A stretch of DNA of 64,000 nt, taken from an uncultured Bacilli bacterium. Lineage in GTDB: Bacteria; Bacillota_I; Bacilli_A; RF39; UBA660. Shown here piece after piece: positions 2,137 through 64,000 of the stretch (position 1 is its first letter; the number at the start of each line of letters is the position of its first letter). The DNA lies in NCBI GenBank assembly GCA_934101425.1, contig CAKOQQ010000007.1, positions 7,338 to 71,337 of the forward strand. Direction: 5' to 3'. The notes beneath the pieces are model-generated. The model did not search any database, was not told the origin of the DNA, and was given only the letters and a program-made list of their open reading frames with translations. Position numbers and translations under genes: made by a program.

Positions 2137-3351
2137 ATGAATGAACCTTTAGCAATTAAATTAAGACCACAAACTTTAAATGATGTAGTTGGTCAAACTC
2201 ATTTGATTGGTGAAAATAAAATATTAAGTAATATTGTAAAAAATAAACATTTATTTTCTATGATTTTTTATGGCAAACCTGGTATTGGAAAAACAACTAT
2301 TGCAAATGCTTTAGTGCATGAATTAGGACTAAAATATCGTTCACTTAATGCAGTTATAAATAATAAAAAAGATTTCGATATAGTTGTAGAAGAAGCTAAA
2401 ATGTATGGCAATATAGTTTTAATTATGGATGAAATACATAGAATGAATAAGGATAAACAAGATTTATTACTTCCTTATGTAGAAAATGGTTTAATAACAC
2501 TTATTGGTTTAACAACCTCTAATCCTTATCATAGTATTAATCCAGCTATAAGAAGTAGATGCCAAATTTTTGAACTTAAAGAATTAACTAAAGAAGATAT
2601 TATATTAGCTATTAAAAATGCTTGTAATAGTGAATATTTAAAGGATATAACTATAGATGATGAGGCAATTAATTATATTGCAACATACTCTAGCGGTGAT
2701 TTAAGAAGTGCCTATAATTTAATAGAAGTAGCTTATTTTTCATCTAATGATAAAGTAATTACTGTAGAATATTTAAAACAAATAAGTAATAAAACTATAT
2801 TTTTTGCTGATAAAAATGGTGATGGACATTATGATTTATTGTCTGCTTTTCAAAAGTCTATTAGAGGTAGTGATGTAGATGCATCTTTATATTATTTAGC
2901 TAGGCTCATTGAATCAGGCGATTTTGATAGTATTTATAGAAGAATGAGTGTTATAGCTTATGAAGATATAGGACTTGCTAATCCTTCAATTGGCCCCAAA
3001 GTAGATGCAGCAATTCACGCATGTGAACGTCTTGGTATGCCAGAAGCTAGAATACCTCTTTCTGTAGTTATTGTTGAAATGGCATTATCTCCTAAATCAA
3101 ATTCTGCCCATGTTGCTTTAGATTTAGCTTTAAATGATATTAGATCAGGATCAACTGGTAATGTTCCAAATCATATTAAAACAAATTCTAAAGATTATAA
3201 GTATCCGCACAACTATAAAAATGCTTACGTAAAACAACAATATTTACCTGATAATATAAAAGACAGAAGATATTATAAAGCTAGAACAACTAGCAAATAT
3301 GAAACATCATTAAAAAATATAAATGATAAATTAAAAGGAATTAGTAATTAA
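2137..3351 (+). CDS. rarA: replication-associated recombination protein A (AAA+ ATPase RarA/MgsA)
   Basis: 404 aa with Walker A GKPGIGKTT and typical RarA length and C-terminal domain. GGTGAT RBS. Confidence 0.85.
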   Translation: MNEPLAIKLRPQTLNDVVGQTHLIGENKILSNIVKNKHLFSMIFYGKPGIGKTTIANALVHELGLKYRSLNAVINNKKDFDIVVEEAKMYGNIVLIMDEIHRMNKDKQDLLLPYVENGLITLIGLTTSNPYHSINPAIRSRCQIFELKELTKEDIILAIKNACNSEYLKDITIDDEAINYIATYSSGDLRSAYNLIEVAYFSSNDKVITVEYLKQISNKTIFFADKNGDGHYDLLSAFQKSIRGSDVDASLYYLARLIESGDFDSIYRRMSVIAYEDIGLANPSIGPKVDAAIHACERLGMPEARIPLSVVIVEMALSPKSNSAHVALDLALNDIRSGSTGNVPNHIKTNSKDYKYPHNYKNAYVKQQYLPDNIKDRRYYKARTTSKYETSLKNINDKLKGISN

Positions 3352-4295
3352 TTCCTTTTTTGATTTATTATAAATAGTTCTAATGCTAAATTTTTATCTA
3401 TTTTTCCTGTTTTAATTTTTAAATCTAAATCAGCTAAAGTATCTATTAAACTAAGTAATTTTTTATTGGTATAACCATTACCTTTCTCTAAAATAAATTT
3501 TATTCTATAAGGATTTTGTTCTAGCATATTACCTATGTCAAAAATATTATACCCTACCCTAGATAATTCTTTTGATTGATACATTAATCTAAAATTATCT
3601 GCTAATATACTAATGATTTTAATCGGTTCTTCATTATTTTTAAGCATTTCATAGTACATTTCTAAAGATTTTTCTATATTTCCATATATTATGTTATCTA
3701 TAAACTTAAATATATCTATTTCATATGTTTTAGAAATGACACTTATAATATCATCTTTAGTAATTTCTTTATCATTTTCTTTATATAACTTTAATTTATT
3801 TATTTCATTATTTATAATTCCTAAATCATTATTTATTCTATCTGCAAATAATTTAATGTTACTATCTGATATTTTATAATCTTTTAATTCTCTTTTTATA
3901 TATGATTCTTTATCAATTTCTTTATTAAATTCTTGTACTTTACCATTCTTTTTAATGGATTTAACAATTTTTTTTACATTGTTTATATTTTCATCGTTTG
4001 ATATAAAAATTATTATAGTTTCTTTTGGACTGTTATCTAAATATTTTTCTAATTCTTTAGTATCAATTTCCTTTTTCCTTTTTATCGTCGAAAAAATAAA
4101 TGCATCATCTACTATTATTAGTTTTTTATCTCCAAACATCGAAAACATTAGTGCATCATCTATTATATTTTTAAGTTCATCATCTTCTAGATTATATTTA
4201 CTTATATTTAAGTCATTTATATTATTTTCACTAATAATTTTCTTTATTTCATCATCGATAAGTACTCTTTGTTTCCCATATAATAGATAGTTCAT
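3348..4295 (-). CDS. holA: DNA polymerase III delta subunit (HolA-like)
   Basis: 315 aa with HolA-like length and N-terminal MNYLLYGKQ..LIDDEIKKI pattern. Convergent 4-nt overlap with rarA. Moderate. Confidence 0.55.
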   Translation of the reverse strand: MNYLLYGKQRVLIDDEIKKIISENNINDLNISKYNLEDDELKNIIDDALMFSMFGDKKLIIVDDAFIFSTIKRKKEIDTKELEKYLDNSPKETIIIFISNDENINNVKKIVKSIKKNGKVQEFNKEIDKESYIKRELKDYKISDSNIKLFADRINNDLGIINNEINKLKLYKENDKEITKDDIISVISKTYEIDIFKFIDNIIYGNIEKSLEMYYEMLKNNEEPIKIISILADNFRLMYQSKELSRVGYNIFDIGNMLEQNPYRIKFILEKGNGYTNKKLLSLIDTLADLDLKIKTGKIDKNLALELFIINQKRN

Positions 4296-7035: not shown

Positions 7036-7112
7036 TGGTAGCGACGGAGGGGATCGAACCCCCGACCTATTGGGTATGAACCAATCGCTCTAGCCAGCTG
7101 AGCTACATCGCC
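7036..7112 (-). tRNA. tRNA-Met (anticodon CAT), elongator type
   Basis: Cloverleaf found by hand. Acceptor GGCGATG/CGTCGCT (two GU pairs), D-arm GCTCAGCTGGCTAGAGC, anticodon stem ATTGG/CCAAT with loop TTCATAC, T-arm GGGGGTTCGATCCCCTC, encoded CCA. Near-identical to Bacillus elongator tRNA-Met and unlike initiator or Ile2. Confidence 0.85.
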
Positions 7113-9790: not shown

Positions 9791-9873
9791 TCTATCACCT
9801 ATTTCATTATATCATATTATAATTTAATTGACATCACTTTTTTAATAATATATAATTATGCTTAGGATAGGAG

Positions 9874-10455
9874 TTGAAGGAAATGTCAAAATGGAAAATT
9901 AATCCTAATTTTTTTGCATTATTGTTGGTTGCATCTTTATTTGCTGAATGGAAATACATGGCTATTCTTGCTTTCTTAGTTTTTGTATTATGGAATGAAA
10001 ATGAAAAATTAAGAAAACTAGCTATTCAAGTAGTTGCTATTTCATCAGCTTGTGCATTATTCTCACTATTATGGACTGCTATTAGCAATGGATTTAGTGT
10101 AGTTGAAAGTGCTGCTAATTTATTAAATAGTATTATTAAATTATTTGATGACACTTATACTAGACCTGAATGGGTAATTACATTATTAGCTATTTTAGAT
10201 AAAGTAGAAGCTTTAATTGCTAATTTAGTTAGTTTAGCTATTTATTTTGCTAAATTTAGCTTCATAGTAGCTATTATAAGTAATGAATTACCAAATAAAG
10301 GTATCTTTAGTAAAATTAGTGAATATTTAAATAAATTCAGTAGTTTTGTAGATAAAAAATTATATGATTTAGTATCTATAAATCCCGCTGGACCAGTAGT
10401 ACAAAATACACAACCAACAGTTAATCAAACTAATGAACAAAATTTAAATAATTAG
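9874..10455 (+). CDS. membrane protein, hypothetical
   Basis: 193 aa, several TM segments, Q/N-rich tail. No family recognised. Confidence 0.5.
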   Translation: MKEMSKWKINPNFFALLLVASLFAEWKYMAILAFLVFVLWNENEKLRKLAIQVVAISSACALFSLLWTAISNGFSVVESAANLLNSIIKLFDDTYTRPEWVITLLAILDKVEALIANLVSLAIYFAKFSFIVAIISNELPNKGIFSKISEYLNKFSSFVDKKLYDLVSINPAGPVVQNTQPTVNQTNEQNLNN

Positions 10456-10460
10456 GACAT

Positions 10461-10490
10461 AAAAAGCATATCAATGATATGCTTTTTATT
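10461..10490. terminator. bidirectional terminator
   Basis: AAAAAGCATATCAatgaTGATATGCTTTTT hairpin between convergent genes. Confidence 0.55.
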
Positions 10491-11007
10491 TTTTAAAAAT
10501 AGATAATACTTTCGATGACATAGTAATTATTTTTGTACTATTTTTAATAGCAACACCTTTTCCCATAGCTTTACCACCAATTGTAAGAGCTGCTATAGTA
10601 GCAGTTACTAATAATGATACTATAAATAGATTTATATCAAATTTTGAAGCTATAGAAGTAGCTACTGCAACACCTGCAGTACCTGATACGATACCACAAA
10701 TATCACCTACCACGTCGTTGCAAATAGATGATACTCTATCAGAATTTTTAATAAATTTAACGGCTATATTTGAACCTTTTACTTTTTTAGCATTCATAGA
10801 AATAATTGGTTTATCATCAGCAGATGTTACTGCAACACCAATCATATCAAATACTATACCTAATAAAATAAATATAAGTACTAATATTATACCAAGTATT
10901 AAACTAGCATCTTTAAGTACCATTTCTGATAAGAAAGAAAATAACATTGATATAGCAAATGCCATTATAGTTATAGTTATTATCCATTTTTTATTATTTT
11001 TTTTCAT
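10486..11007 (-). CDS. small 4-TM membrane protein, candidate OapA-like (OLE-associated protein A) partner of the upstream structured RNA
   Basis: 173 aa, four predicted TM helices, internal duplication (VFDMIGVAVTSADD / VVGDICGIVSGTAGVAVATS), one DxxxD (DVVGD). AAGGAG RBS. Directly downstream of and co-oriented with the ncRNA. Confidence 0.45.
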   Translation of the reverse strand: MKKNNKKWIITITIMAFAISMLFSFLSEMVLKDASLILGIILVLIFILLGIVFDMIGVAVTSADDKPIISMNAKKVKGSNIAVKFIKNSDRVSSICNDVVGDICGIVSGTAGVAVATSIASKFDINLFIVSLLVTATIAALTIGGKAMGKGVAIKNSTKIITMSSKVLSIFKK

Positions 11008-11017
11008 ATTACTCCTT

Positions 11018-11637
11018 ATAATAAAAAGGGACCAAGTCCCTTTATATACATCTTAAATGGCTATTAACATAATTAACTTTGCGTCTTAGGTCAAGTAGGT
11101 TTTCCCTGAATCTTGCATCACGTTACCATGGGTGCGGTTTCCCTTTAAAAGATTCAATATATCGTCTCCAAATATATGACTTGATTACCACTTAGTACGC
11201 ACTGTAATCTTATATTACGTCACTCTAGGGGATTTCCCCGGCTACTAATTTATTATTAATTCTTTTTTGCAAGTATTGTTTCAAACTGCGATTTTTAAAT
11301 AATCTTAGCTATAAACTACTTAAAATAGATCAGTTATCCCCATAACTCACTCAAGACAAGCTACGCTATTCATAACTTTCGCCACAAAATAGGTTCACGC
11401 CTAATTCGTATCTGGTCCGTCAACTAATAGTGTATAGGCCAAACACAAGATTAGGTCTCCATGAATGCTGGGTCGTTTGCGTATGCCATTACGGACGCCC
11501 ATCACTCTACCTTTCAGCATCCACCCCAAACTGGGCGTAAGAAGCAAACACCAAAAGTTTCACAGATGTGCTCTTTACCGGATTTTTAGCCCCGGCTTCC
11601 TAATAAATCAAATAGACTAGAATAATGTGCCACTTGA
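11018..11637 (-). ncRNA. large (~620 nt) structured non-coding RNA, candidate OLE (ornate, large, extremophilic) RNA
   Basis: ORF-free and markedly GC-enriched relative to the genome. G-rich on the minus strand. Nested helices GTTTGC(11475-80)/GCAAAC(11544-49) enclosing ACGCCCA(11495-501)/TGGGCGT(11532-38), a CCGG...CCGG hairpin (11578-95) and GGGGAaaTCCCC. Consensus promoter upstream and hairpin+U-tract at 11025-11043. Lacks RNase P GGAAAGUCC and tmRNA tRNA-like ends. Boundaries approximate. Confidence 0.45.
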
Positions 11638-11644
11638 TAGATAA

Positions 11645-11672
11645 ATTATATCATATTTTATAAAAATGTCAA
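11645..11672 (-). promoter_or_regulatory. near-consensus sigma-A promoter with extended -10 (TTGACA-16-TGaTATAAT) driving the ncRNA
   Basis: Minus strand reads TTGACATTTTTATAAAATATGATATAAT. Confidence 0.6.
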
Positions 11673-11680
11673 ATTGACAA

Positions 11681-12202
11681 TTATTTTCTCTTTTTTATTA
11701 CTTTGGCTGGATTACCTGCAACTATTGTATAACATTCTACATCTTTAGTAACAACAGCTCCAGCTGCAATAATTGATCCTTCATGAATAGTTACACCTGG
11801 TAATATTATTGCATTAGCTCCTATCCATACATCATTTTCTATAATAACTGGTTTTATTTCGCTATTTCCTTGCTTAATCATTGGTATATCTGTTCTATCA
11901 AATTTATGATTAGAAGTATATATAGAAACATTAGGTCCCATCATAACATTTGAACCAATAGTTACTGAAGATGTTATTTTAGCGTTAATACCAATACCAG
12001 AATTATCACCTATTTCAATATTTGGCGATATATTAGCATTTTTATCTATATTTATATTTTTACCAGTCTTATTTGCAAATCCTTTTACTAGTAAATTTCT
12101 TATTTGCTTACCAAATAAATTAATTGGAAAATCAGATGCTGGTAAATGTTTACCTATTAAATGATATAAAATATAACAAAAATATATTCGTAATTTACTC
12201 AT
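11681..12202 (-). CDS. sugar O-acetyltransferase, hexapeptide-repeat (LbH) family
   Basis: 173 aa with repeated [LIV]G.N..I hexapeptides ([25 protein letters not shown]). WbbJ/maltose acetyltransferase-like. Confidence 0.75.
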
Positions 12203-13346
12203 TAATTTCTTCCCCTTTTAAAATAATTTCTAGAAAATTTAACCATCTTTCTTTAATTTTTTCAAAAGAATATTTTTTAGCTGTCTCTTTAGCATTTTTT
12301 CCCATTATACTTATTTCTTTTTTATTATCCAATAGTTTAATTATTTTTTTAGCCATAACATCTTTACTTCTATTTTTTATTACATATCCAGAAAAATTAT
12401 TTTTTATAAGTTCCAAAGATCCAGAAGCACTATCAAAAATAATTCCAGGTAGACCATATGACATACCTTCTAAAAGAGCTATGCCAAATGATTCAGTATA
12501 TGATGTAACAATAAAAGCTTTAGAATGACTTAAAACATCATTGATATAATCTTTGTTTTGAAAGCCATGTAAGATGATATTATTTTCTAAATGTAAATTT
12601 GTTATTATATCTTTTAAATTATTTCTTTCTGGCCCATCACCAATTATATCTAGTTTATAATTAGGATTTTTTGCTACAACCTTTTTAAAAACATCTATTA
12701 AATCATCAAAACCCTTTTCTTTTGATAATCTCCCCACTGTTACAACATTTTTAGTATAATCACTATCTATTTCTGGAATATTATCAAGAGAGTTTGGCAT
12801 ATAATAACATTTTACTTTCCCTGTTAATGTTGCAGTATAAAAATTTGTAAGTTCTTTTGATACAGGCAATAAATAATCTATATTTTTGCATGCATCATTT
12901 AAATTTTGTATATATTTTTGATCATTTAAATGATGACGATGTTCTTGAGCTATTTTAATAATACTTTCTTTCCCGTATTTGCTTAAATAATTTGTAAATA
13001 ATACTCTCGTAGATATTATTACATCAGCATTACTATTTTTAATATAATCTATCATAGTTTTTTTTCTCAAATATAAAACTTTTATAGCTTTTATACCTTC
13101 TTTTAATAAATTAAAAATTTTAAAGTTTTTAAAGTTTTGCTTAATTTCTTTTTTATTTGGACCATAAGGTATTAAGTATTTTATTTTTACCTTGTCATCT
13201 ATTTTATATACAGGTTTCTTTCCCATTTTATAAGTACAAATTATTTCAACTTTATAATCATCACAAAGCATATTTGCAAGTGTTGCTACAGCTTTTTCAA
13301 CACCACCATAATTTAAATGTAATGATAATATTGCAATTTTTTTCAT
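12195..13346 (-). CDS. glycosyltransferase family 4 (GT-B)
   Basis: 383 aa with [16 protein letters not shown] (E-x7-E) motif. Paralogue of 15204-16427. Confidence 0.8.
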
Positions 13347-13366
13347 TTTATCACAACTCTTTTTCT

Positions 13367-14464
13367 TTAATTTGCATATTTTTCAATAATTGCATCAACA
13401 ATTCTTTCGCTTGCATGTCCATCACCATATGGATTAGAAGCTTTACTCATTTTTTCATATTTTTTATTATTATCTAATAATTCTTTAGTTTCACGAATTA
13501 TGTCTTCTTCTTTTGTTCCAACTAATTTTAATGTACCCGCATCAATTCCTTCCGGTCTTTCTGTTGTATCTCTAAGAACTAATACTGGTTTACCAAGTGA
13601 TGGAGCTTCTTCTTGAATTCCACCACTATCTGTTAGTATTAAATATGATTTATTTATTATATTATGAAAATCTAGCACATCTAGTGGCGGTACAATTTTA
13701 ACTTTATCATTATTAGCTAAGTATTCATCTACAATATTTTTAATTATTGGGTTTAAATGTACAGGATATAATACTCTTATATCTTCATATTCACTTGTTA
13801 ACTTATTTATAGCGCTAAAGATTCTCTTCATAGGTTCTCCTACATTTTCTCTTCTATGAGCTGTTAATAATATTAATCTTTTATCTTTAGCAAAATCTAA
13901 TATTTCATTTTCATAATCTTCTTTAACAGTAGTAGCCATAGCATCTATTGCAGTATTACCAGTTACATAAATATTTTTTCTACCTTCTTTAAGTAAATTT
14001 TCTTCACTTAATTTAGTTGGTGCAAAATTCATATCTGCTAAGCAACTAACCATTTGTCTATTCATTTCTTCTGGATATGGTGAATATTTTTCGTATGTTC
14101 TAAGTCCTGCTTCAACATGCCCTATATCTACTTGTTTGTAAAATGCTGCTAAAGCTCCTACAAATGTAGTAGTAGTATCACCATGAACAAGAACTATATT
14201 TGGTTTTTCATGTTCAATTATTTCTTCCAAAGCTATAAGTGATCTAGTAGTTATATCACCTAATGTTTGGCCTTGTTTCATAATATTTAAATCATATTCT
14301 GGCTTAATATCGAATGTTGTTAATACTTGATCTAACATTTCCCTATGTTGTGCTGTTACGCATACTATGCACTCTGTTTCTTCCCTTTTTTCTAATTCTT
14401 TAATAAGTGGTGCCATTTTAATGGCTTCTGGTCTAGTACCAAAAATTGTCATTACTTTTATCAT
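13367..14464 (-). CDS. wecB: UDP-N-acetylglucosamine 2-epimerase (non-hydrolysing), WecB/MnaA
   Basis: 365 aa starting MIKVMTIFGTRPEAIKMAPL, with the HVEAGLR motif. Confidence 0.9.
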   Translation of the reverse strand: MIKVMTIFGTRPEAIKMAPLIKELEKREETECIVCVTAQHREMLDQVLTTFDIKPEYDLNIMKQGQTLGDITTRSLIALEEIIEHEKPNIVLVHGDTTTTFVGALAAFYKQVDIGHVEAGLRTYEKYSPYPEEMNRQMVSCLADMNFAPTKLSEENLLKEGRKNIYVTGNTAIDAMATTVKEDYENEILDFAKDKRLILLTAHRRENVGEPMKRIFSAINKLTSEYEDIRVLYPVHLNPIIKNIVDEYLANNDKVKIVPPLDVLDFHNIINKSYLILTDSGGIQEEAPSLGKPVLVLRDTTERPEGIDAGTLKLVGTKEEDIIRETKELLDNNKKYEKMSKASNPYGDGHASERIVDAIIEKYAN

Positions 14465-14486
14465 ATATCCTCCTAATCAGCAATTA

Positions 14487-15197
14487 CTATTTCATTTTTT
14501 TAATTTTGAATATAAATTTTACATTATTATTATAAAATCTTTTTAATCTAGATGGTTCACACATAATTCTATATAACCATTCCATATTCATTTTAATAAA
14601 TAATTTTGGTGCTCTTTTCTTTGAACCACTTATTACATCTAGTGATCCACCTACTCCAACAAAAATACCTTTATCAAACTTATCTAAATGCTTATAGATA
14701 AGTTTTTCTTGATTAGGTATACCAAGAGCAACTAAGATTATATCTGGCTTTGATTTGATAATTTTTTCAAAATCCTTATCTTTATCTTTACTATAACCAT
14801 TTACCATACCTAAAATATTTAAATTAGGATATTTTTCTTTTAAAACATCTTTTAGTTTTACTAATACTTCTTCTTTAGAACCTAATATATATATTGATTT
14901 ATTATTTAAAGAACCAAGGCGTAATAGTTCTTCTGCTATTTCAACGCCTGGTATTCTTTCTTTTATATCATAATTAAGCATTTTAGCTGACTTCACTATA
15001 CCTATTCCATCAGGAACTATCGTAGTATCTTTTGATAATAATAATTTTTTAAAACTATCATCATTTTCTGCTATATTAAATGTTTCTGGATTTGCTGTTA
15101 CTATAAACATTTTTTTATTGTTTTCTAAATTTTCATCTAATACTTTATAAAAACTCTCTTTTGTATCTAAATATAATTTGTTAAATAAACTCTTCAT
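14487..15197 (-). CDS. tagA: WecB/TagA/CpsF family (GT26) N-acetylmannosaminyltransferase
   Basis: 236 aa with GT26 hallmarks (PDGIGIV, VGVGGSLDV). Confidence 0.75.
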   Translation of the reverse strand: MKSLFNKLYLDTKESFYKVLDENLENNKKMFIVTANPETFNIAENDDSFKKLLLSKDTTIVPDGIGIVKSAKMLNYDIKERIPGVEIAEELLRLGSLNNKSIYILGSKEEVLVKLKDVLKEKYPNLNILGMVNGYSKDKDKDFEKIIKSKPDIILVALGIPNQEKLIYKHLDKFDKGIFVGVGGSLDVISGSKKRAPKLFIKMNMEWLYRIMCEPSRLKRFYNNNVKFIFKIKKMK

Positions 15198-15203
15198 ACT
15201 ACC

Positions 15204-16427
15204 TCACTCTATTAAATTACTTGTATCTGGTTTTTGATTATCTTTATCTGCGATTTGTTGTAATAATGATTGTATATCATTTTTTGCATATATATCTTCT
15301 TTTATATCTTCAATTTTTACTTCTTTATCAAATTCTTTACCATTTATAATTGCATCTATAAAATCATTCCATCTATTTGTAAGTGAACTATAAGAATACT
15401 TTTTAGCTGTTTCTTTTGCTTTGTTACCAATAAGTATTTTAAATTCATCACTGCTTAATAAAAGTTTTACTTTTCTAGCCATTTCTTCGATATCTCTATT
15501 TTTTACAATATATCCATTTGAATTGTCTTCCATGAACTCTAATACACCAGTAGCTGTATCAAAAACTACAGATGGAAGCCCATATGACATCGCTTCTAAT
15601 AAGGAAAGTCCAAATGATTCTTTTTTACTTGCTAATACAAACACAGATGAATGACTTAATAAATCATTTATATAGTCTTTATTTTGGTATCCATGTAATG
15701 TTACTTTATCTTTTATTCTAAGATCAAATATTTTTTTCTTGATTTTATTAAGTTCAGGTCCATCTCCTACTATATCTAATGTAACATCAGGAAGTTCTAG
15801 TTGAACTTGATAATACATGTTTATTATATCTAAAACACCTTTATCACTAGTTAATCTACCAACAGTAATAATATTCTTTTTAGAAAAATCTGAATTTATA
15901 ATTGGTATATCATCTAGTACATTAGGCATATGATAACATGGCATTTTTAAATATTTTTTATAATAATCTCTAATTTCTTTTGATACAGTAAGAATATAAT
16001 TAGCATATTTATAATTTTTTCTTACTTTTTTTATTTCTTTTTTGTTATCCAAATGATAATTATTTTCTATAAACACCTTATATTTGTTCTTTTTATTATA
16101 TTTAAACCATTTTACATAAGTACTATTACTAGTTATAAGCACATCATAATCATTTTTCTTTATTTCTTTTTTTATTACACTTTTATTTAAAAATCCAACT
16201 TTTATTTTTAATAATAATTTCTTAACTATACTTCTTTTTTCTTCTTTTTCACTGCTAAGTAAAAATACTTGTTTTACGTTATCGTTTAGCTTATGAGTTC
16301 CATTTTCTTCTTTATATGTTTGTACTAGTGTTACTTCATGATTTACTGATAGCATATTTACAATACTACACAAAGATTTATCAATACCACTTAAACTAAG
16401 TTTTTTTGCTAATATTTTTATTTTCAT
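15204..16427 (-). CDS. glycosyltransferase family 4 with ~40-aa C-terminal extension
   Basis: 407 aa with ESFGLSLLEAMSYGLP and [16 protein letters not shown], which parallels 12195-13346. Confidence 0.8.
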   Translation of the reverse strand: MKIKILAKKLSLSGIDKSLCSIVNMLSVNHEVTLVQTYKEENGTHKLNDNVKQVFLLSSEKEEKRSIVKKLLLKIKVGFLNKSVIKKEIKKNDYDVLITSNSTYVKWFKYNKKNKYKVFIENNYHLDNKKEIKKVRKNYKYANYILTVSKEIRDYYKKYLKMPCYHMPNVLDDIPIINSDFSKKNIITVGRLTSDKGVLDIINMYYQVQLELPDVTLDIVGDGPELNKIKKKIFDLRIKDKVTLHGYQNKDYINDLLSHSSVFVLASKKESFGLSLLEAMSYGLPSVVFDTATGVLEFMEDNSNGYIVKNRDIEEMARKVKLLLSSDEFKILIGNKAKETAKKYSYSSLTNRWNDFIDAIINGKEFDKEVKIEDIKEDIYAKNDIQSLLQQIADKDNQKPDTSNLIE

Positions 16428-17602
16428 AAAGTCTCCTTATCTATATTCAAATATAAAATAATTGTTATTCCAAAATATATAGAAACTGCTGGTGCACTTA
16501 AGATATGACCTGCAAAAAAAGCTATTAAAAGAGACAACATAGTTATTAATATTAATATCATTTTATCATAATTATAGTTATTTAAATGTGATAATGCATA
16601 CTCCATCATTTTTAATACAATTTTAAAGAATGGAATCATAAATATTATAAATCCTATAATACCATATCTATATAATAAATCATAAAAATCCATTTCAACA
16701 TATTTTTCTAATACTTTATTATTTGTAGATCCTAATCCGAACAATTTTTCTTCTAAATTATGATTTATATATTCTCTAGTTGTATTATTTAAATATATAT
16801 CTCTAGATGAAAATACAGCATTAGTAGTACTTATATATCTTCCACTATTTAAATTACTTAAATATGAAGAATTAAAAAATAAAATAACTGTATAACTTAT
16901 AAAAAATACTATTTTAAATATATTTTTCTTATTTTTATCTTTAAGCAATATATGAATAAATAACGCGATTAGTGATATTAAAACCCCAAGAAGTGGTGTT
17001 TTAGTACCGAGCATCATCATCATAAATATAACATACATAACAAGTATAAAACTATACTTATTATTCTTTAAAATGTCTTCTAAAAATAATGGGAATAGAA
17101 TTGTTATTATTCCACTTATTTCATTTGCTGAATAATACCATCCTACAACCCCTGTAGTAACGGTATCACTATAACTATTAAATCCGGTATTTGTTAACTT
17201 CGCAATTAAAATAGTTGTTAAAATGAAAAATACATTATATTTTAAAATCTTTTTCATTTCTATATATGATATTTTATAATCATCATTATAATTAAGTAAA
17301 AATATAAAAATTATTGGTAAAAACATAAACTTTATAAGTTGTGTTCCACTGCTTACATAACTATTATTACCAATCAATATATGAATTATAGAAAATATTG
17401 ATAATAATAAATAATAAATAATACTTTTCTTTTTATATTTTGATTTAGTTATAAATAATATATAAATACCACTGAATAAAATTAATATTCCTTTAAAAAT
17501 TGTTCCTATTGATACTATATTACCATTTATTCTTTCTGTAAAAGATGTAATTAAATCTATAAATGGTAATATTAAAAATAAATAATAAATAATCTTTTTC
17601 AT
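16424..17602 (-). CDS. polytopic membrane protein, O-antigen polymerase/ligase (Wzy/WaaL)-like
   Basis: 392 aa with 10 or more TM segments, embedded in the glycosyltransferase cluster. Confidence 0.5.
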   Translation of the reverse strand: MKKIIYYLFLILPFIDLITSFTERINGNIVSIGTIFKGILILFSGIYILFITKSKYKKKSIIYYLLLSIFSIIHILIGNNSYVSSGTQLIKFMFLPIIFIFLLNYNDDYKISYIEMKKILKYNVFFILTTILIAKLTNTGFNSYSDTVTTGVVGWYYSANEISGIITILFPLFLEDILKNNKYSFILVMYVIFMMMMLGTKTPLLGVLISLIALFIHILLKDKNKKNIFKIVFFISYTVILFFNSSYLSNLNSGRYISTTNAVFSSRDIYLNNTTREYINHNLEEKLFGLGSTNNKVLEKYVEMDFYDLLYRYGIIGFIIFMIPFFKIVLKMMEYALSHLNNYNYDKMILILITMLSLLIAFFAGHILSAPAVSIYFGITIILYLNIDKETL

Positions 17603-18573
17603 ATAAACCTCGTTAATAATTTCACTGTTTTGTATTTTTTGTAATATAGCAAATTACAAGCTATCTTAAATTTTAAATTTTTCTTCTTGTAATATTTATT
17701 TTTTCTCCAATTTGGGCATTTTTCTTTTAACATTTTGTTTATTTTAAGTAAATCTTCTCTTGCTTCTTTAGTTTTAAATGGTAAAATTCTTAAAGAAGCA
17801 GATAAAAATATATGGTAAATGAATATAAATTCAAATTCTTCATCATAATTTTCTTTACTCTTTTTATATTTATCAAATAAAAAATCATAAGCGTAAAATA
17901 TATCTTTTAATCTTTTTGTATATTTTTCTTGATTCATCGTAGAATGTTTTCTTCTAACATATTTATAAGGTGCATATTTCATATATGCAATATTTTCTGC
18001 ATATATTGCATATATAGGTACAACTGCTAAATCTTCATATATATGCCTTTCAAGAAAATACAAATCATTTTTCAATAATATATCTTTCTTTATTATTTTA
18101 TTTGTTGGACCATTTGAAGAAACGATATAATTTTTTACTATATCACTTGTATAATAATTTATACCCTTTATTATAGTTTTATTTTTACCATCAATTTCAA
18201 ATCTTTCCATATCACATACTACTAAATCTGAATCAAATGAAATTGCTTTATTATACATTTTTTCGTACATTTTACTATCAACATAATCATCATCATCCAC
18301 AAATGCAATATACTCTCCTTTGGCTAATTTAATACAATAATTTCTTGCTGCTCCTTGCATTTGATTTTTTTGATAATAGTATTTAACTCTAGGATCTTTT
18401 ATTTGCAATACAAGATTTTTTGTATTATCTGTAGAACCATCATCTATAACAATTATTTCGATTTCTTTTAATGTCTGATCAAGTAATGAATTAATACATT
18501 TTAATATATATTGTTCACCATTGTAAGTTGGTACTATTATACTTATTTTTACCATATTCATCCACCTATTCAC
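17599..18573 (-). CDS. glycosyltransferase family 2
   Basis: IIVPTYNGEQYILKCINSLLDQT, DDGSTD and DDDD motifs. Confidence 0.8.
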   Translation of the reverse strand: MNRWMNMVKISIIVPTYNGEQYILKCINSLLDQTLKEIEIIVIDDGSTDNTKNLVLQIKDPRVKYYYQKNQMQGAARNYCIKLAKGEYIAFVDDDDYVDSKMYEKMYNKAISFDSDLVVCDMERFEIDGKNKTIIKGINYYTSDIVKNYIVSSNGPTNKIIKKDILLKNDLYFLERHIYEDLAVVPIYAIYAENIAYMKYAPYKYVRRKHSTMNQEKYTKRLKDIFYAYDFLFDKYKKSKENYDEEFEFIFIYHIFLSASLRILPFKTKEAREDLLKINKMLKEKCPNWRKNKYYKKKNLKFKIACNLLYYKKYKTVKLLTRFI

Positions 18574-63793: not shown

Positions 63794-63930
63794 TTCACAC
63801 CTCCCTAGGCTAATGTACCAAATAAAAGCCTTACTAAAACAGTAAGGCCGAATAAACTTTATTATTAAGTTCCTCGGTAGGAAATATTAAGCTTTCGCTC
63901 CTACTGTCTATGGTACTAAATTATTTAATT
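63794..63930 (-). promoter_or_regulatory. rplJ (L10) leader with hairpin+U-tract attenuator
   Basis: GCCTTACTgttttAGTAAGGC (63828-63848) followed by TTTTATTTGG on the minus strand, immediately 5' of the rplJ RBS. Its position matches the L10-leader autoregulatory element of Bacillota. Confidence 0.4.
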
Positions 63931-64000
63931 TTTCAAGAACAAATTGATTATAACATACTTTTTATTAAATGTCAAAAGAATTTAAATCAATTTTAATTCC

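What the first reader, a model, noticed from the sequence alone, without database searches (positions are those of the whole stretch)
11018..11672. ~620-nt ORF-free, GC-enriched, highly structured RNA with consensus promoter: candidate OLE-class large ncRNA
The segment is the only part of the window whose composition departs strongly from the roughly 25% GC background. It is G-rich on the minus strand and has no ORF of 60 aa or more in any frame. Several nested and local helices are visible by eye: GTTTGC/GCAAAC enclosing ACGCCCA/TGGGCGT, a CCGG-10nt-CCGG hairpin and GGGGAaaTCCCC. The best promoter in the window sits upstream on the minus strand (TTGACA-16-TGaTATAAT), and a hairpin plus U-tract closes the segment. 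The size of about 600 nt and the position directly 5' of a co-oriented small 4-TM protein gene match what is described for OLE RNA and oapA in anaerobic or extremophilic Bacillota. If it is not OLE, it is an uncharacterised large ncRNA.
Basis: partly seen in the sequence, partly recalled or inferred. Interest (0 to 1): 0.85.

Follow-up and report, generated by a model that had tools for sequence, protein, structure and literature searches.

The report
OLE RNA gene with oapA partner

Summary
Rfam's OLE model (RF01071) matches window 11649..11041 (minus strand) end to end, at 394.9 bits against a threshold of 50. No other large-RNA family matches.

Evidence from 25 related gut 'Bacilli bacterium' MAG loci:
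- The Rfam consensus fold is kept by compensatory changes: 88.9% of cells paired against 40-45% in slid controls, and 103 of 147 pairs with double changes.
- The long-range stems P1-P3 and P15, absent from the Rfam model, are supported too.

The RNA carries the published functional signatures:
- an A-rich L4 loop and complementary L5.1/L6.1 loops;
- a palindromic L9.3 loop (AGCU);
- a P13 GNRA tetraloop with a one-base bulge, and a k-turn core;
- a 14-bp P3/P3.1 stem.

A consensus extended -10 promoter is conserved across the clade.

Verdict: already known family, routine instance, low interest.

The parts
11645..11672 (-). sigma-70-type promoter of ole. The -35 TTGACA is at 11672..11667, then a 16-nt spacer with the extended -10 TG at 11653..11652, then the -10 TATAAT at 11650..11645. 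The predicted transcription start is about 11638 (inferred).
   Evidence: scores it 12/12 with the TG. One search shows it is one of 3 perfect matches in the window (0.21 expected by chance). One search finds TTGACA-17-TG-TATAAT-like promoters at a fixed distance upstream of the conserved 5' box in nearly all 26 related loci.
11041..11649 (-). OLE RNA (Rfam RF01071), full-length type, 609 nt as matched. The mature RNA probably spans about 11638 to about 11020.
   Evidence: 394.9 bits, model 1-616/616; 88.9% of cells paired and 103/147 pairs with compensatory changes; z = -2.8; no ORF of 60 aa or more.
11601..11635 (-). 5' strands of the long-range stems: P1 (11635..11629), P2 (11621..11617) and P3/P3.1 (11615..11601). 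Their 3' partners are at 11061..11055 (P1), 11228..11224 (P2) and 11255..11242 (P3/P3.1). P3 plus P3.1 makes 14 bp with a one-base bulge.
   Evidence: Derived by hand on the window sequence. One search then tested it on alignment A1: 89.3% paired against 32-49% when slid, and 19/28 pairs with double changes. These stems are not in the Rfam consensus structure.
11577..11596 (-). P4 hairpin with the A-rich loop CUAAAAAU (L4). In published structures this is dimer bridge B1, made of A-A pairs.
   Evidence: helix 1, 94% paired, loop As invariant. The role is taken from PMC12286853 and PMC12265935.
11457..11566 (-). Region holding the k-turn core, P5/P5.1 and P6/P6.1. The k-turn core is C85-UGU-G89-A90 at 11565..11560 together with G191-A192-G193 at 11459..11457. 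P5/P5.1 carries loop GCCCA (11536..11532). P6/P6.1 carries loop AUGGCA (11489..11484).
   Evidence: C85, G89, A90, G191, A192, G193, GCCCA and GGCA are invariant in 26 sequences. Helices 2-5 covary. The k-turn and OapC site come from PMC9723947 and PMC12286853. Mapping those sites onto this sequence is an inference.
11261..11455 (-). P7 (11455..11400), P8 (11392..11366) and the long P9 arm (11357..11261). The apex loop of P9, L9.3, contains the palindrome AGCU at 11310..11307.
   Evidence: helices 6-11; 62/72 homologs have a palindromic tetranucleotide in L9.3 (GGCC, AGCU, GUAC or GCGC). Because P7 and P8 are present, this is the 'full-length' type as defined in PMC11332333.
11062..11239 (-). 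3' domain. It holds the P10 hairpin GGGGAAAUCCCC (11239..11229), P12/P12.1/P12.2, P13, P14/P14.1 with a GUAA loop, and P15. P13 (11177..11157) reads AUAUA-U(bulge)-UUG-[GAGA]-CGA-UAUAU.
   Evidence: helices 12-18, 90-100% paired; P15. A GNRA tetraloop plus a one-base bulge are the determinants of OapB binding (PMC7936274).
11016..11043 (-). Terminator-like hairpin (8 bp, 4 of them G-C) plus a U-tract, sitting between ole and oapA. The oapA ribosome-binding site AAGGAG at 11017..11012 follows directly.
   Evidence: One search shows hairpins and/or U-tracts at the same place in many relatives.
10486..11007 (-). oapA, the 173-aa OLE-associated membrane protein A.
10459..10489 (.). Hairpin with T-runs on both sides, lying between the convergent oapA and the 193-aa ORF. 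It is probably a bidirectional terminator that ends the ole-oapA unit.
   Evidence: 14-bp stem with T-runs on both sides.

Best explanation
The segment is the ole gene. It encodes a full-length OLE RNA and forms a two-gene unit with oapA.

Shown here:
- The sequence and its covariation-supported secondary structure are those of OLE, from P1 to P15.
- A consensus extended -10 promoter sits about 10 nt upstream of P1.
- A terminator-like hairpin lies between ole and the oapA ribosome-binding site.
- The downstream protein has the OapA signatures.

Inferred from work on Halalkalibacterium halodurans and Clostridium OLE RNAs:
- The RNA is transcribed at high level from its own promoter. Most transcripts end at the hairpin, and a fraction read through to translate OapA.
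- Two OLE RNAs dimerise through L4 A-A pairs, L5.1-L6.1 kissing loops and the palindromic L9.3 loop (AGCU here).
- OapA dimers, which have a CorB/CNNM-like transmembrane fold, bind the RNA near P4a and hold it at the cell membrane. The 14-bp P3/P3.1 stem lies alongside or across the bilayer.
- P13 (GNRA tetraloop plus bulge) and the k-turn are docking sites for OapB and OapC, if the genome encodes them.
- The assembled ribonucleoprotein helps the cell adapt to stresses such as cold, short-chain alcohols, excess Mg2+ and poor carbon sources.

Its precise biochemical activity is unknown for the whole family.
For: RNA identity and fold:
- Rfam OLE at 394.9 bits, full length, and no rival family.
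- 88.9% of cells paired against 40-45% in slid controls, 103/147 pairs with compensatory changes, and 0/500 shuffles reaching the observed values.
- P1-P3 and P15 are supported independently of the Rfam model.
- L4, L5.1, L6.1 and the k-turn core are invariant, P13 keeps its GNRA loop and bulge, and L9.3 is palindromic.

Linkage to oapA:
- an OLE sequence lies directly upstream of the oapA homolog in 84/88 loci.
- 19/19 related loci with enough upstream sequence give full-length OLE hits of 323-438 bits.

Expression signals:
- the promoter and the terminator-like element are conserved.

OapA identity:
- DxxxD motif, four transmembrane helices, and a CorB/CorC fold. The top structural match, 7M1U, is the same entry reported for H. 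halodurans OapA in PMC11332333.

Selection:
- the locus is 100% identical on several independent gut-metagenome contigs, which suggests it is maintained.

Mechanistic background: PMC9723947, PMC7936274, PMC12286853, PMC12265935, PMC10898510.
Against: - There are no expression data, so the transcript ends, abundance and read-through are all inferred.
- OapB (KOW) and OapC (L7Ae/YbxF) were not found among the window's small proteins, and the rest of the genome could not be inspected. Reduced gut lineages are reported often to lack them (PMC11332333).
- A small hairpin of the Rfam model (positions 424-435) and the first three pairs of the outer 3'-domain stem are missing here.
- The apex of P9 aligns poorly in the MAFFT alignment (helix 11, 57% paired).
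- The family's biochemical function is still unknown, and the transmembrane-RNA model is a proposal.
Confidence: 0.93

Rival explanations
1. The RNA works mainly in cis, as a long structured 5' leader or attenuator of oapA, rather than as a stable trans-acting RNP component.
For: In this clade the only promoter for oapA appears to be the one upstream of ole. The terminator-like hairpin lies directly before the oapA ribosome-binding site.
Against: The RNA has about 600 nt of deeply conserved structure, with protein-binding and dimerisation motifs identical to OLE RNAs that are known to accumulate as stable ~600-nt RNAs and to bind OapA, OapB and OapC (PMC9723947; PMC12286853). A leader would not need these features.
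Confidence: 0.04
2. It is a decaying, non-functional relic of OLE in a reduced gut genome.
For: Reduced gut lineages often carry truncated OLE variants and lack OapB and OapC (PMC11332333). One small hairpin is missing here. Two relatives, L022 and L024, have a truncated P9.
Against: The match is full length at 395 bits. Every conserved block is intact. Compensatory changes keep the helices paired across the clade. The consensus promoter is conserved, oapA is intact with invariant motifs, and the sequence is identical across independent metagenomes.
Confidence: 0.02
3. It is a different or uncharacterised large ncRNA (GOLLD, ROOL, HEARO, raiA, RNase P, tmRNA or 6S), or it holds a small protein-coding gene.
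For: None beyond its size and lack of long ORFs.
Against: Only OLE passes the Rfam gathering thresholds. The largest internal ORF is 51 aa. The substitution pattern among homologs is helix-compensating, not codon-like.
Confidence: 0.01

Closest known systems
OLE RNA (Rfam RF01071), full-length type as defined by Fernando & Breaker 2024 (PMC11332333); model systems H. halodurans, Clostridium acetobutylicum and C. botulinum
   Same: - Length of about 610 nt, with all stems P1-P15, including P7 and P8.
- The conserved sequence blocks.
- The L4, L5.1/L6.1 and L9.3 dimerisation motifs.
- The P13 GNRA tetraloop with its bulge, and the k-turn core.
- oapA immediately downstream.
- Its own promoter, which H. 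halodurans ole also has (PMC9723947).
- A host in the Bacillota; this one is an anaerobic gut organism.
   Different: - The helices are very AU-rich (37% GC overall).
- The small hairpin at Rfam model positions 424-435 is absent in this whole Bacilli clade.
- The neighbours are cell-wall polysaccharide genes upstream (acetyltransferase, GT4, wecB, tagA-like) and glyA/folD downstream, with no sign of ole being embedded in a large operon as described for H. halodurans.
- A terminator-like hairpin separates ole from oapA.
OLE variant 1 (TANB77) and variant 2 (RF39) of reduced gut bacteria (PMC11332333)
   Same: The host type is the same: uncultured, low-GC gut Bacillota known only from metagenomes.
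   Different: Variant 1 has shortened P7-P9 and often lacks the OapB site. Variant 2 lacks P7 and P8. The window RNA keeps all of these, so it is not a variant. Two relatives, L022 and L024, do have a shortened P9.
OapA, and more distantly the CNNM/CorB/MpfA Mg2+ transporter transmembrane domain (PF01595)
   Same: - A sub-threshold CNNM match and a DxxxD motif.
- A four-helix membrane protein.
- A predicted fold that superposes on MtCorB 7M1U and CorC 7CFG.
   Different: It has no CBS or CorC_HlyC cytosolic domains and is only 173 aa long.

Membership tests
OLE RNA (RF01071) | Covariance-model score above the curated threshold, over the full model | tested here: met
   394.9 bits against 50, E = 1.6e-112, model 1-616/616, not truncated.
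OLE RNA (RF01071) | Conserved multi-stem secondary structure (P4-P14) maintained by compensatory changes | tested here: met
   on a structure-blind MAFFT alignment of 26 sequences: 88.9% of cells paired against 40-45% when slid, 103/147 pairs with double changes, and 0/500 shuffles as high. The weakest part is the P9 apex at 57%.
OLE RNA (RF01071) | Long-range stems P1, P2 and P3/P3.1 that enclose the domains (P3+P3.1 typically about 12 bp) | tested here: met
   89.3% paired against 32-49% when slid, and 19/28 pairs with double changes. P3+P3.1 is 14 bp here.
OLE RNA (RF01071) | A co-oriented oapA gene immediately downstream | tested here: met
   for the window; 84/88 loci with an OapA homolog have OLE directly upstream.
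OLE RNA (RF01071) | Dimerisation motifs: A-rich L4, complementary L5.1/L6.1 loops, palindromic L9.3 | tested here: met
   CUAAAAAU, GCCCA and UGGCA are invariant or nearly so. AGCU in the window, and a palindrome in 62/72 homologs. Dimerisation itself was not tested.
OLE RNA (RF01071) | OapB site (P13 GNRA tetraloop plus a single-nucleotide bulge, next to P12.2) and OapC k-turn core | tested here: met
   Sequence motifs only. P13 has a GAGA loop and a U bulge. C85, G89, A90 and G191-A192-G193 are invariant. Protein binding cannot be tested here.
OLE RNA (RF01071) | Full-length type rather than variant 1 or 2 (P7, P8 and a long P9 present) | tested here: met
   alignment, and helices 6-11.
OLE RNA (RF01071) | Accumulates as an abundant ~600-nt RNA located at the membrane | not testable with these tools
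   No expression or localisation data are available.
OLE RNA (RF01071) | Host is a Gram-positive Bacillota anaerobe or extremophile | tested here: met
   the exact locus is found on human gut metagenome contigs; the nearest relatives are 'Bacilli bacterium' gut MAGs. The window also encodes cell-wall genes. The exact taxon was not determined.
OapA | Small protein with four transmembrane helices | tested here: met
   long helices at residues 5-31, 36-62, 89-123 and 127-155, with pLDDT 80.5.
OapA | Conserved DxxxD motif | tested here: met
   N97-D98-V99-x-G101-D102 is invariant in 26 homologs.
OapA | Distant CNNM/CorB relationship: a sub-threshold PF01595 match and a CorB-like fold, without CBS or CorC domains | tested here: met
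OapA | Binds OLE RNA and brings it to the membrane | not testable with these tools
   This needs biochemistry.
OapB / OapC partners | The genome encodes a KOW-domain OapB (YbzG) and an L7Ae-family OapC (YbxF) | tested here: inconclusive
   no KOW or L7Ae hit among 10 small proteins of the window. No ybxF-like gene follows rpoC. Only 64 kb of the genome is visible.
Other large ncRNAs (GOLLD, ROOL, HEARO, raiA, RNase P, tmRNA, 6S) | Match to the family covariance model | tested here: not met
   the only matches at gathering thresholds in the whole window are OLE, the L10 leader and one tRNA.

The most novel reading that the evidence does not exclude
In this low-GC gut Bacilli clade, ole-oapA may be a free-standing two-gene cassette. 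A consensus extended -10 promoter drives it, and a conserved terminator-like hairpin or U-tract between ole and the oapA ribosome-binding site sets the RNA-to-protein ratio by partial read-through. The clade's L9.3 loops add palindromes (GUAC, GCGC) to the GGCC, GAUC and AGCU reported in PMC12286853, which adds independent covariation support for RNA dimerisation. Neither point changes what OLE is.
Probability: 0.35. Interest if true: 0.3.

Novelty: already known. Interest (0 to 1): 0.22.

Why it matters
OLE is one of the largest and best-conserved bacterial noncoding RNAs whose biochemical function is still unknown. Each well-defined representative therefore adds comparative data. This instance shows that an uncultured gut Bacilli lineage of about 25% GC keeps the complete full-length architecture, including all the dimerisation and protein-docking motifs, in very AU-rich form and under its own promoter. 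It opens no new question and makes no open question more testable. Standard Rfam annotation finds it at once, and a published survey already reports 2,822 OLE genes across the Bacillota.

Tried and rejected
GTTTGC/GCAAAC is rejected: 46-53% paired with no covariation, and it conflicts with P5. ACGCCCA/TGGGCGT involves invariant residues, so covariation cannot test it, and it is probably not an intramolecular helix.
- **Other RNA families.** None reaches threshold.
- **Coding potential.** None.
- **PDB sequence search with OapA.** No match even at E <= 10. The relationship to CorB shows only at the fold level.
- **OapB and OapC in the window.** Not found. This says nothing about the whole genome.
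- **Naming the organism.** The exact taxon and GTDB order remain undetermined.
- **A covariance model of the whole RNA.** Not attempted, because 610 nt exceeds the tool's practical size limit. I used a structure-blind MAFFT alignment instead, which is conservative.
- **L058.** This OapA homolog has no OLE within 3 kb on either side, even at permissive Rfam thresholds. It is left unexplained.

Full report
**Observation**

- Window 11018..11672 has no ORF of 60 aa or more. The largest internal ORF is 51 aa.
- Its GC content is 0.36 against a background of about 0.25. That is the highest 500-nt bin, but rpoB/rpoC reach 0.32-0.35, and the strand skew is ordinary.
- On the minus strand there is a 12/12 promoter with an extended -10 TG at 11672..11645, and a terminator-like hairpin at 11043..11025.
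- The promoter is one of three perfect consensus promoters in the window, where 0.21 are expected by chance.
- The RNA folds better than all 20 dinucleotide shuffles (z = -2.8).

**Identity**

- A scan of the whole window against Rfam 15 gives one large-RNA match. It is OLE (RF01071) at 11649..11041 on the minus strand, at 394.9 bits against a gathering score of 50, E = 1.6e-112, covering model positions 1-616 of 616.
- No other large-RNA family reaches threshold. The only other hits are an L10 leader and a tRNA.
- Relative to the model, 149 of 159 consensus pairs are retained and 10 of those are non-canonical.
- The one notable loss is a small hairpin at model positions 424-435, together with the first three pairs of the outer 3'-domain stem.

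**Source and relatives**

- The exact downstream protein occurs on many human gut metagenome contigs with the same neighbours. The 648-nt ole region is 100% identical on seven of them.
- In GTDB species representatives, the closest homologs of the protein are 'uncultured Bacilli bacterium' gut MAGs from human, rabbit and goat, at no more than 62% identity. Oscillospiraceae, Faecousia and Agathobaculum follow at about 45%.
- In 84 of 88 loci an OLE-like sequence lies directly upstream of the homolog and is co-oriented with it. Three of the four exceptions lack upstream sequence.
- Of 20 loci tested with Rfam, 19 give full-length OLE hits of 323-438 bits. The exception is L058.

**Structure test**

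- I projected the Rfam consensus structure through the window row onto a structure-blind MAFFT alignment of the window plus 25 Bacilli-group homologs.
- 88.9% of cells form standard pairs, against 40-45% when the 3' partners are slid by 1-3 columns. 103 of 147 pairs show changes on both sides, and none of 500 shuffles reaches any observed measure.
- Only the apex of the long P9 arm is weak, at 57%. It is variable in length and hard to align.
- The long-range stems P1, P2, P3/P3.1 and P15 are absent from the Rfam model. I derived them on the window sequence and they are also supported: 89.3% paired against 32-49%, and 19 of 28 pairs with double changes.
The ACGCCCA/TGGGCGT complementarity involves invariant bases and cannot be tested this way.

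**Functional motifs**

The published determinants are all present.

- The P4 loop CUAAAAAU corresponds to the A-A dimer bridge.
- The L5.1 loop GCCCA and the L6.1 loop AUGGCA correspond to the intermolecular kissing loops.
- The L9.3 loop has an AGCU palindrome. This is one of the covarying palindromes reported for the symmetric kissing loop (PMC12286853, PMC12265935).
- Across 72 homologs, 62 have a palindromic tetranucleotide in the predicted L9.3 loop: GGCC 53, AGCU 4, GUAC 4 and GCGC 1. Shuffled loops give a mean of 31 and a maximum of 43.
- P13 reads AUAUA-U-UUG-[GAGA]-CGA-UAUAU. That is a GNRA tetraloop plus a one-base bulge, the OapB determinants (PMC7936274).
- The k-turn core, C85-NNN-G89-A90 with G191-A192-G193, is invariant in the alignment (PMC9723947, PMC12286853).
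- P3+P3.1 is 14 bp, in line with the roughly 12 bp proposed to span the membrane (PMC12265935).
- P7 and P8 are present, so this is the full-length type and not variant 1 or 2 (PMC11332333).

**OapA**

- The 173-aa protein at 11007..10486 gives only a sub-threshold CNNM match, 22.6 bits against a 28.4 cutoff. That is the behaviour published for OapA (PMC11332333).
- Its family alignment has an invariant CNDV(V/I)GDICGI block, which holds the DxxxD hallmark.
- AlphaFold2 gives pLDDT 80.5 and pTM 0.71, with four long helices.
- There is no sequence-level PDB match.

**Expression architecture**

- TTGACA-17-TG-TATAAT-like promoters lie at a fixed distance upstream of the conserved 5' box in nearly all 26 clade members.
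- Hairpins and/or U-tracts followed by a ribosome-binding site and the oapA start codon lie downstream in many of them.
- H. halodurans ole also has its own promoter (PMC9723947), so this feature is not new.
- I infer strong transcription of ole with partial read-through into oapA.

**Limits**

- There are no expression data.
- OapB and OapC were not found in the 64-kb window, and the rest of the genome is unseen.
- The exact taxon is undetermined.
- The biochemical function of OLE is unknown for the entire family.

**Verdict**

This is a routine, full-length member of a known RNA family together with its known partner gene.

Noticed in passing
window 63813..63931 (-) and 63947..63975 (-): A ribosomal protein L10 leader (Rfam RF00557, 77.8 bits) lies upstream of rplJ-rplL-rpoB-rpoC. 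It is preceded by a perfect TTGACA-17-TATAAT promoter with an extended -10 TG.
   Followed up: partly
window 7039..7112 (-): A single tRNA gene (Rfam 65.3 bits). The anticodon loop reads CAU, so it is of the Met/Ile2 type.
   Followed up: no
window 9874..10455 (+), promoter 9828..9856 (+): A 193-aa predicted membrane protein with no Pfam or NCBIfam match lies convergent to oapA. It is driven by one of the three perfect consensus promoters in the window and is conserved on all the metagenome contigs, where it is called as 190 aa. A hairpin with T-runs on both sides at 10459..10489 separates it from oapA.
   Followed up: partly
L058 (CANQYK010000029.1, rabbit-gut Bacilli MAG), oapA homolog at 3001..3501: An OapA homolog (53% identity) has no OLE RNA within 3 kb on either side, even at permissive Rfam thresholds. 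A small protein gene and a separate promoter precede it. This is the only clear break in ole-oapA synteny among 88 loci.
   Followed up: partly
L072 and L086 (Bengtsoniella intestinalis NZ_CP133584.1, around 258-265 kb and 8-15 kb): One complete genome carries two separate ole-oapA loci with near-identical nhmmer scores. This suggests the cassette has been duplicated.
   Followed up: no
L022:2410-2953 and L024:2310-2876: Two members of the same Bacilli group have a much shorter P9 arm (42 and 51 nt, against about 88) that lacks the palindromic L9.3 loop. This resembles the published 'variant 1' shortening.
   Followed up: partly
L018, L020, L021, L043 (GUAC) and L059 (GCGC), L9.3 loops: The L9.3 apex loops use the palindromes GUAC and GCGC, which are not among the GGCC, GAUC and AGCU set quoted in the cryo-EM paper. 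They are further covariation consistent with a symmetric intermolecular kissing loop.
   Followed up: partly
window 11532..11538 and 11496..11502 (-): The P5.1 loop ACGCCCA is complementary to UGGGCGU on the 5' side of P6, and both are nearly invariant. UGGG already pairs with CCCA in P6, so this could be an alternative or tertiary pairing, or it could be coincidence. Covariation cannot decide.
   Followed up: partly
alignment A1 columns 486-504 (window about 11219..11217): The small hairpin at Rfam model positions 424-435 is absent from the window and from 24 of the 25 aligned relatives. Only L060, a Clostridia MAG, has sequence there.
   Followed up: partly
window 11681..18573 (-): Directly upstream of ole lies a run of cell-envelope polysaccharide genes: a hexapeptide acetyltransferase, a GT4 glycosyltransferase, UDP-GlcNAc 2-epimerase, a 236-aa ORF read by eye as WecG/TagA-like, another GT4-like ORF, an O-antigen-ligase-like membrane protein and a GT2-like ORF. 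Only the acetyltransferase, the first GT4 and the epimerase were confirmed with Pfam. Downstream of oapA are glyA and folD.
   Followed up: partly
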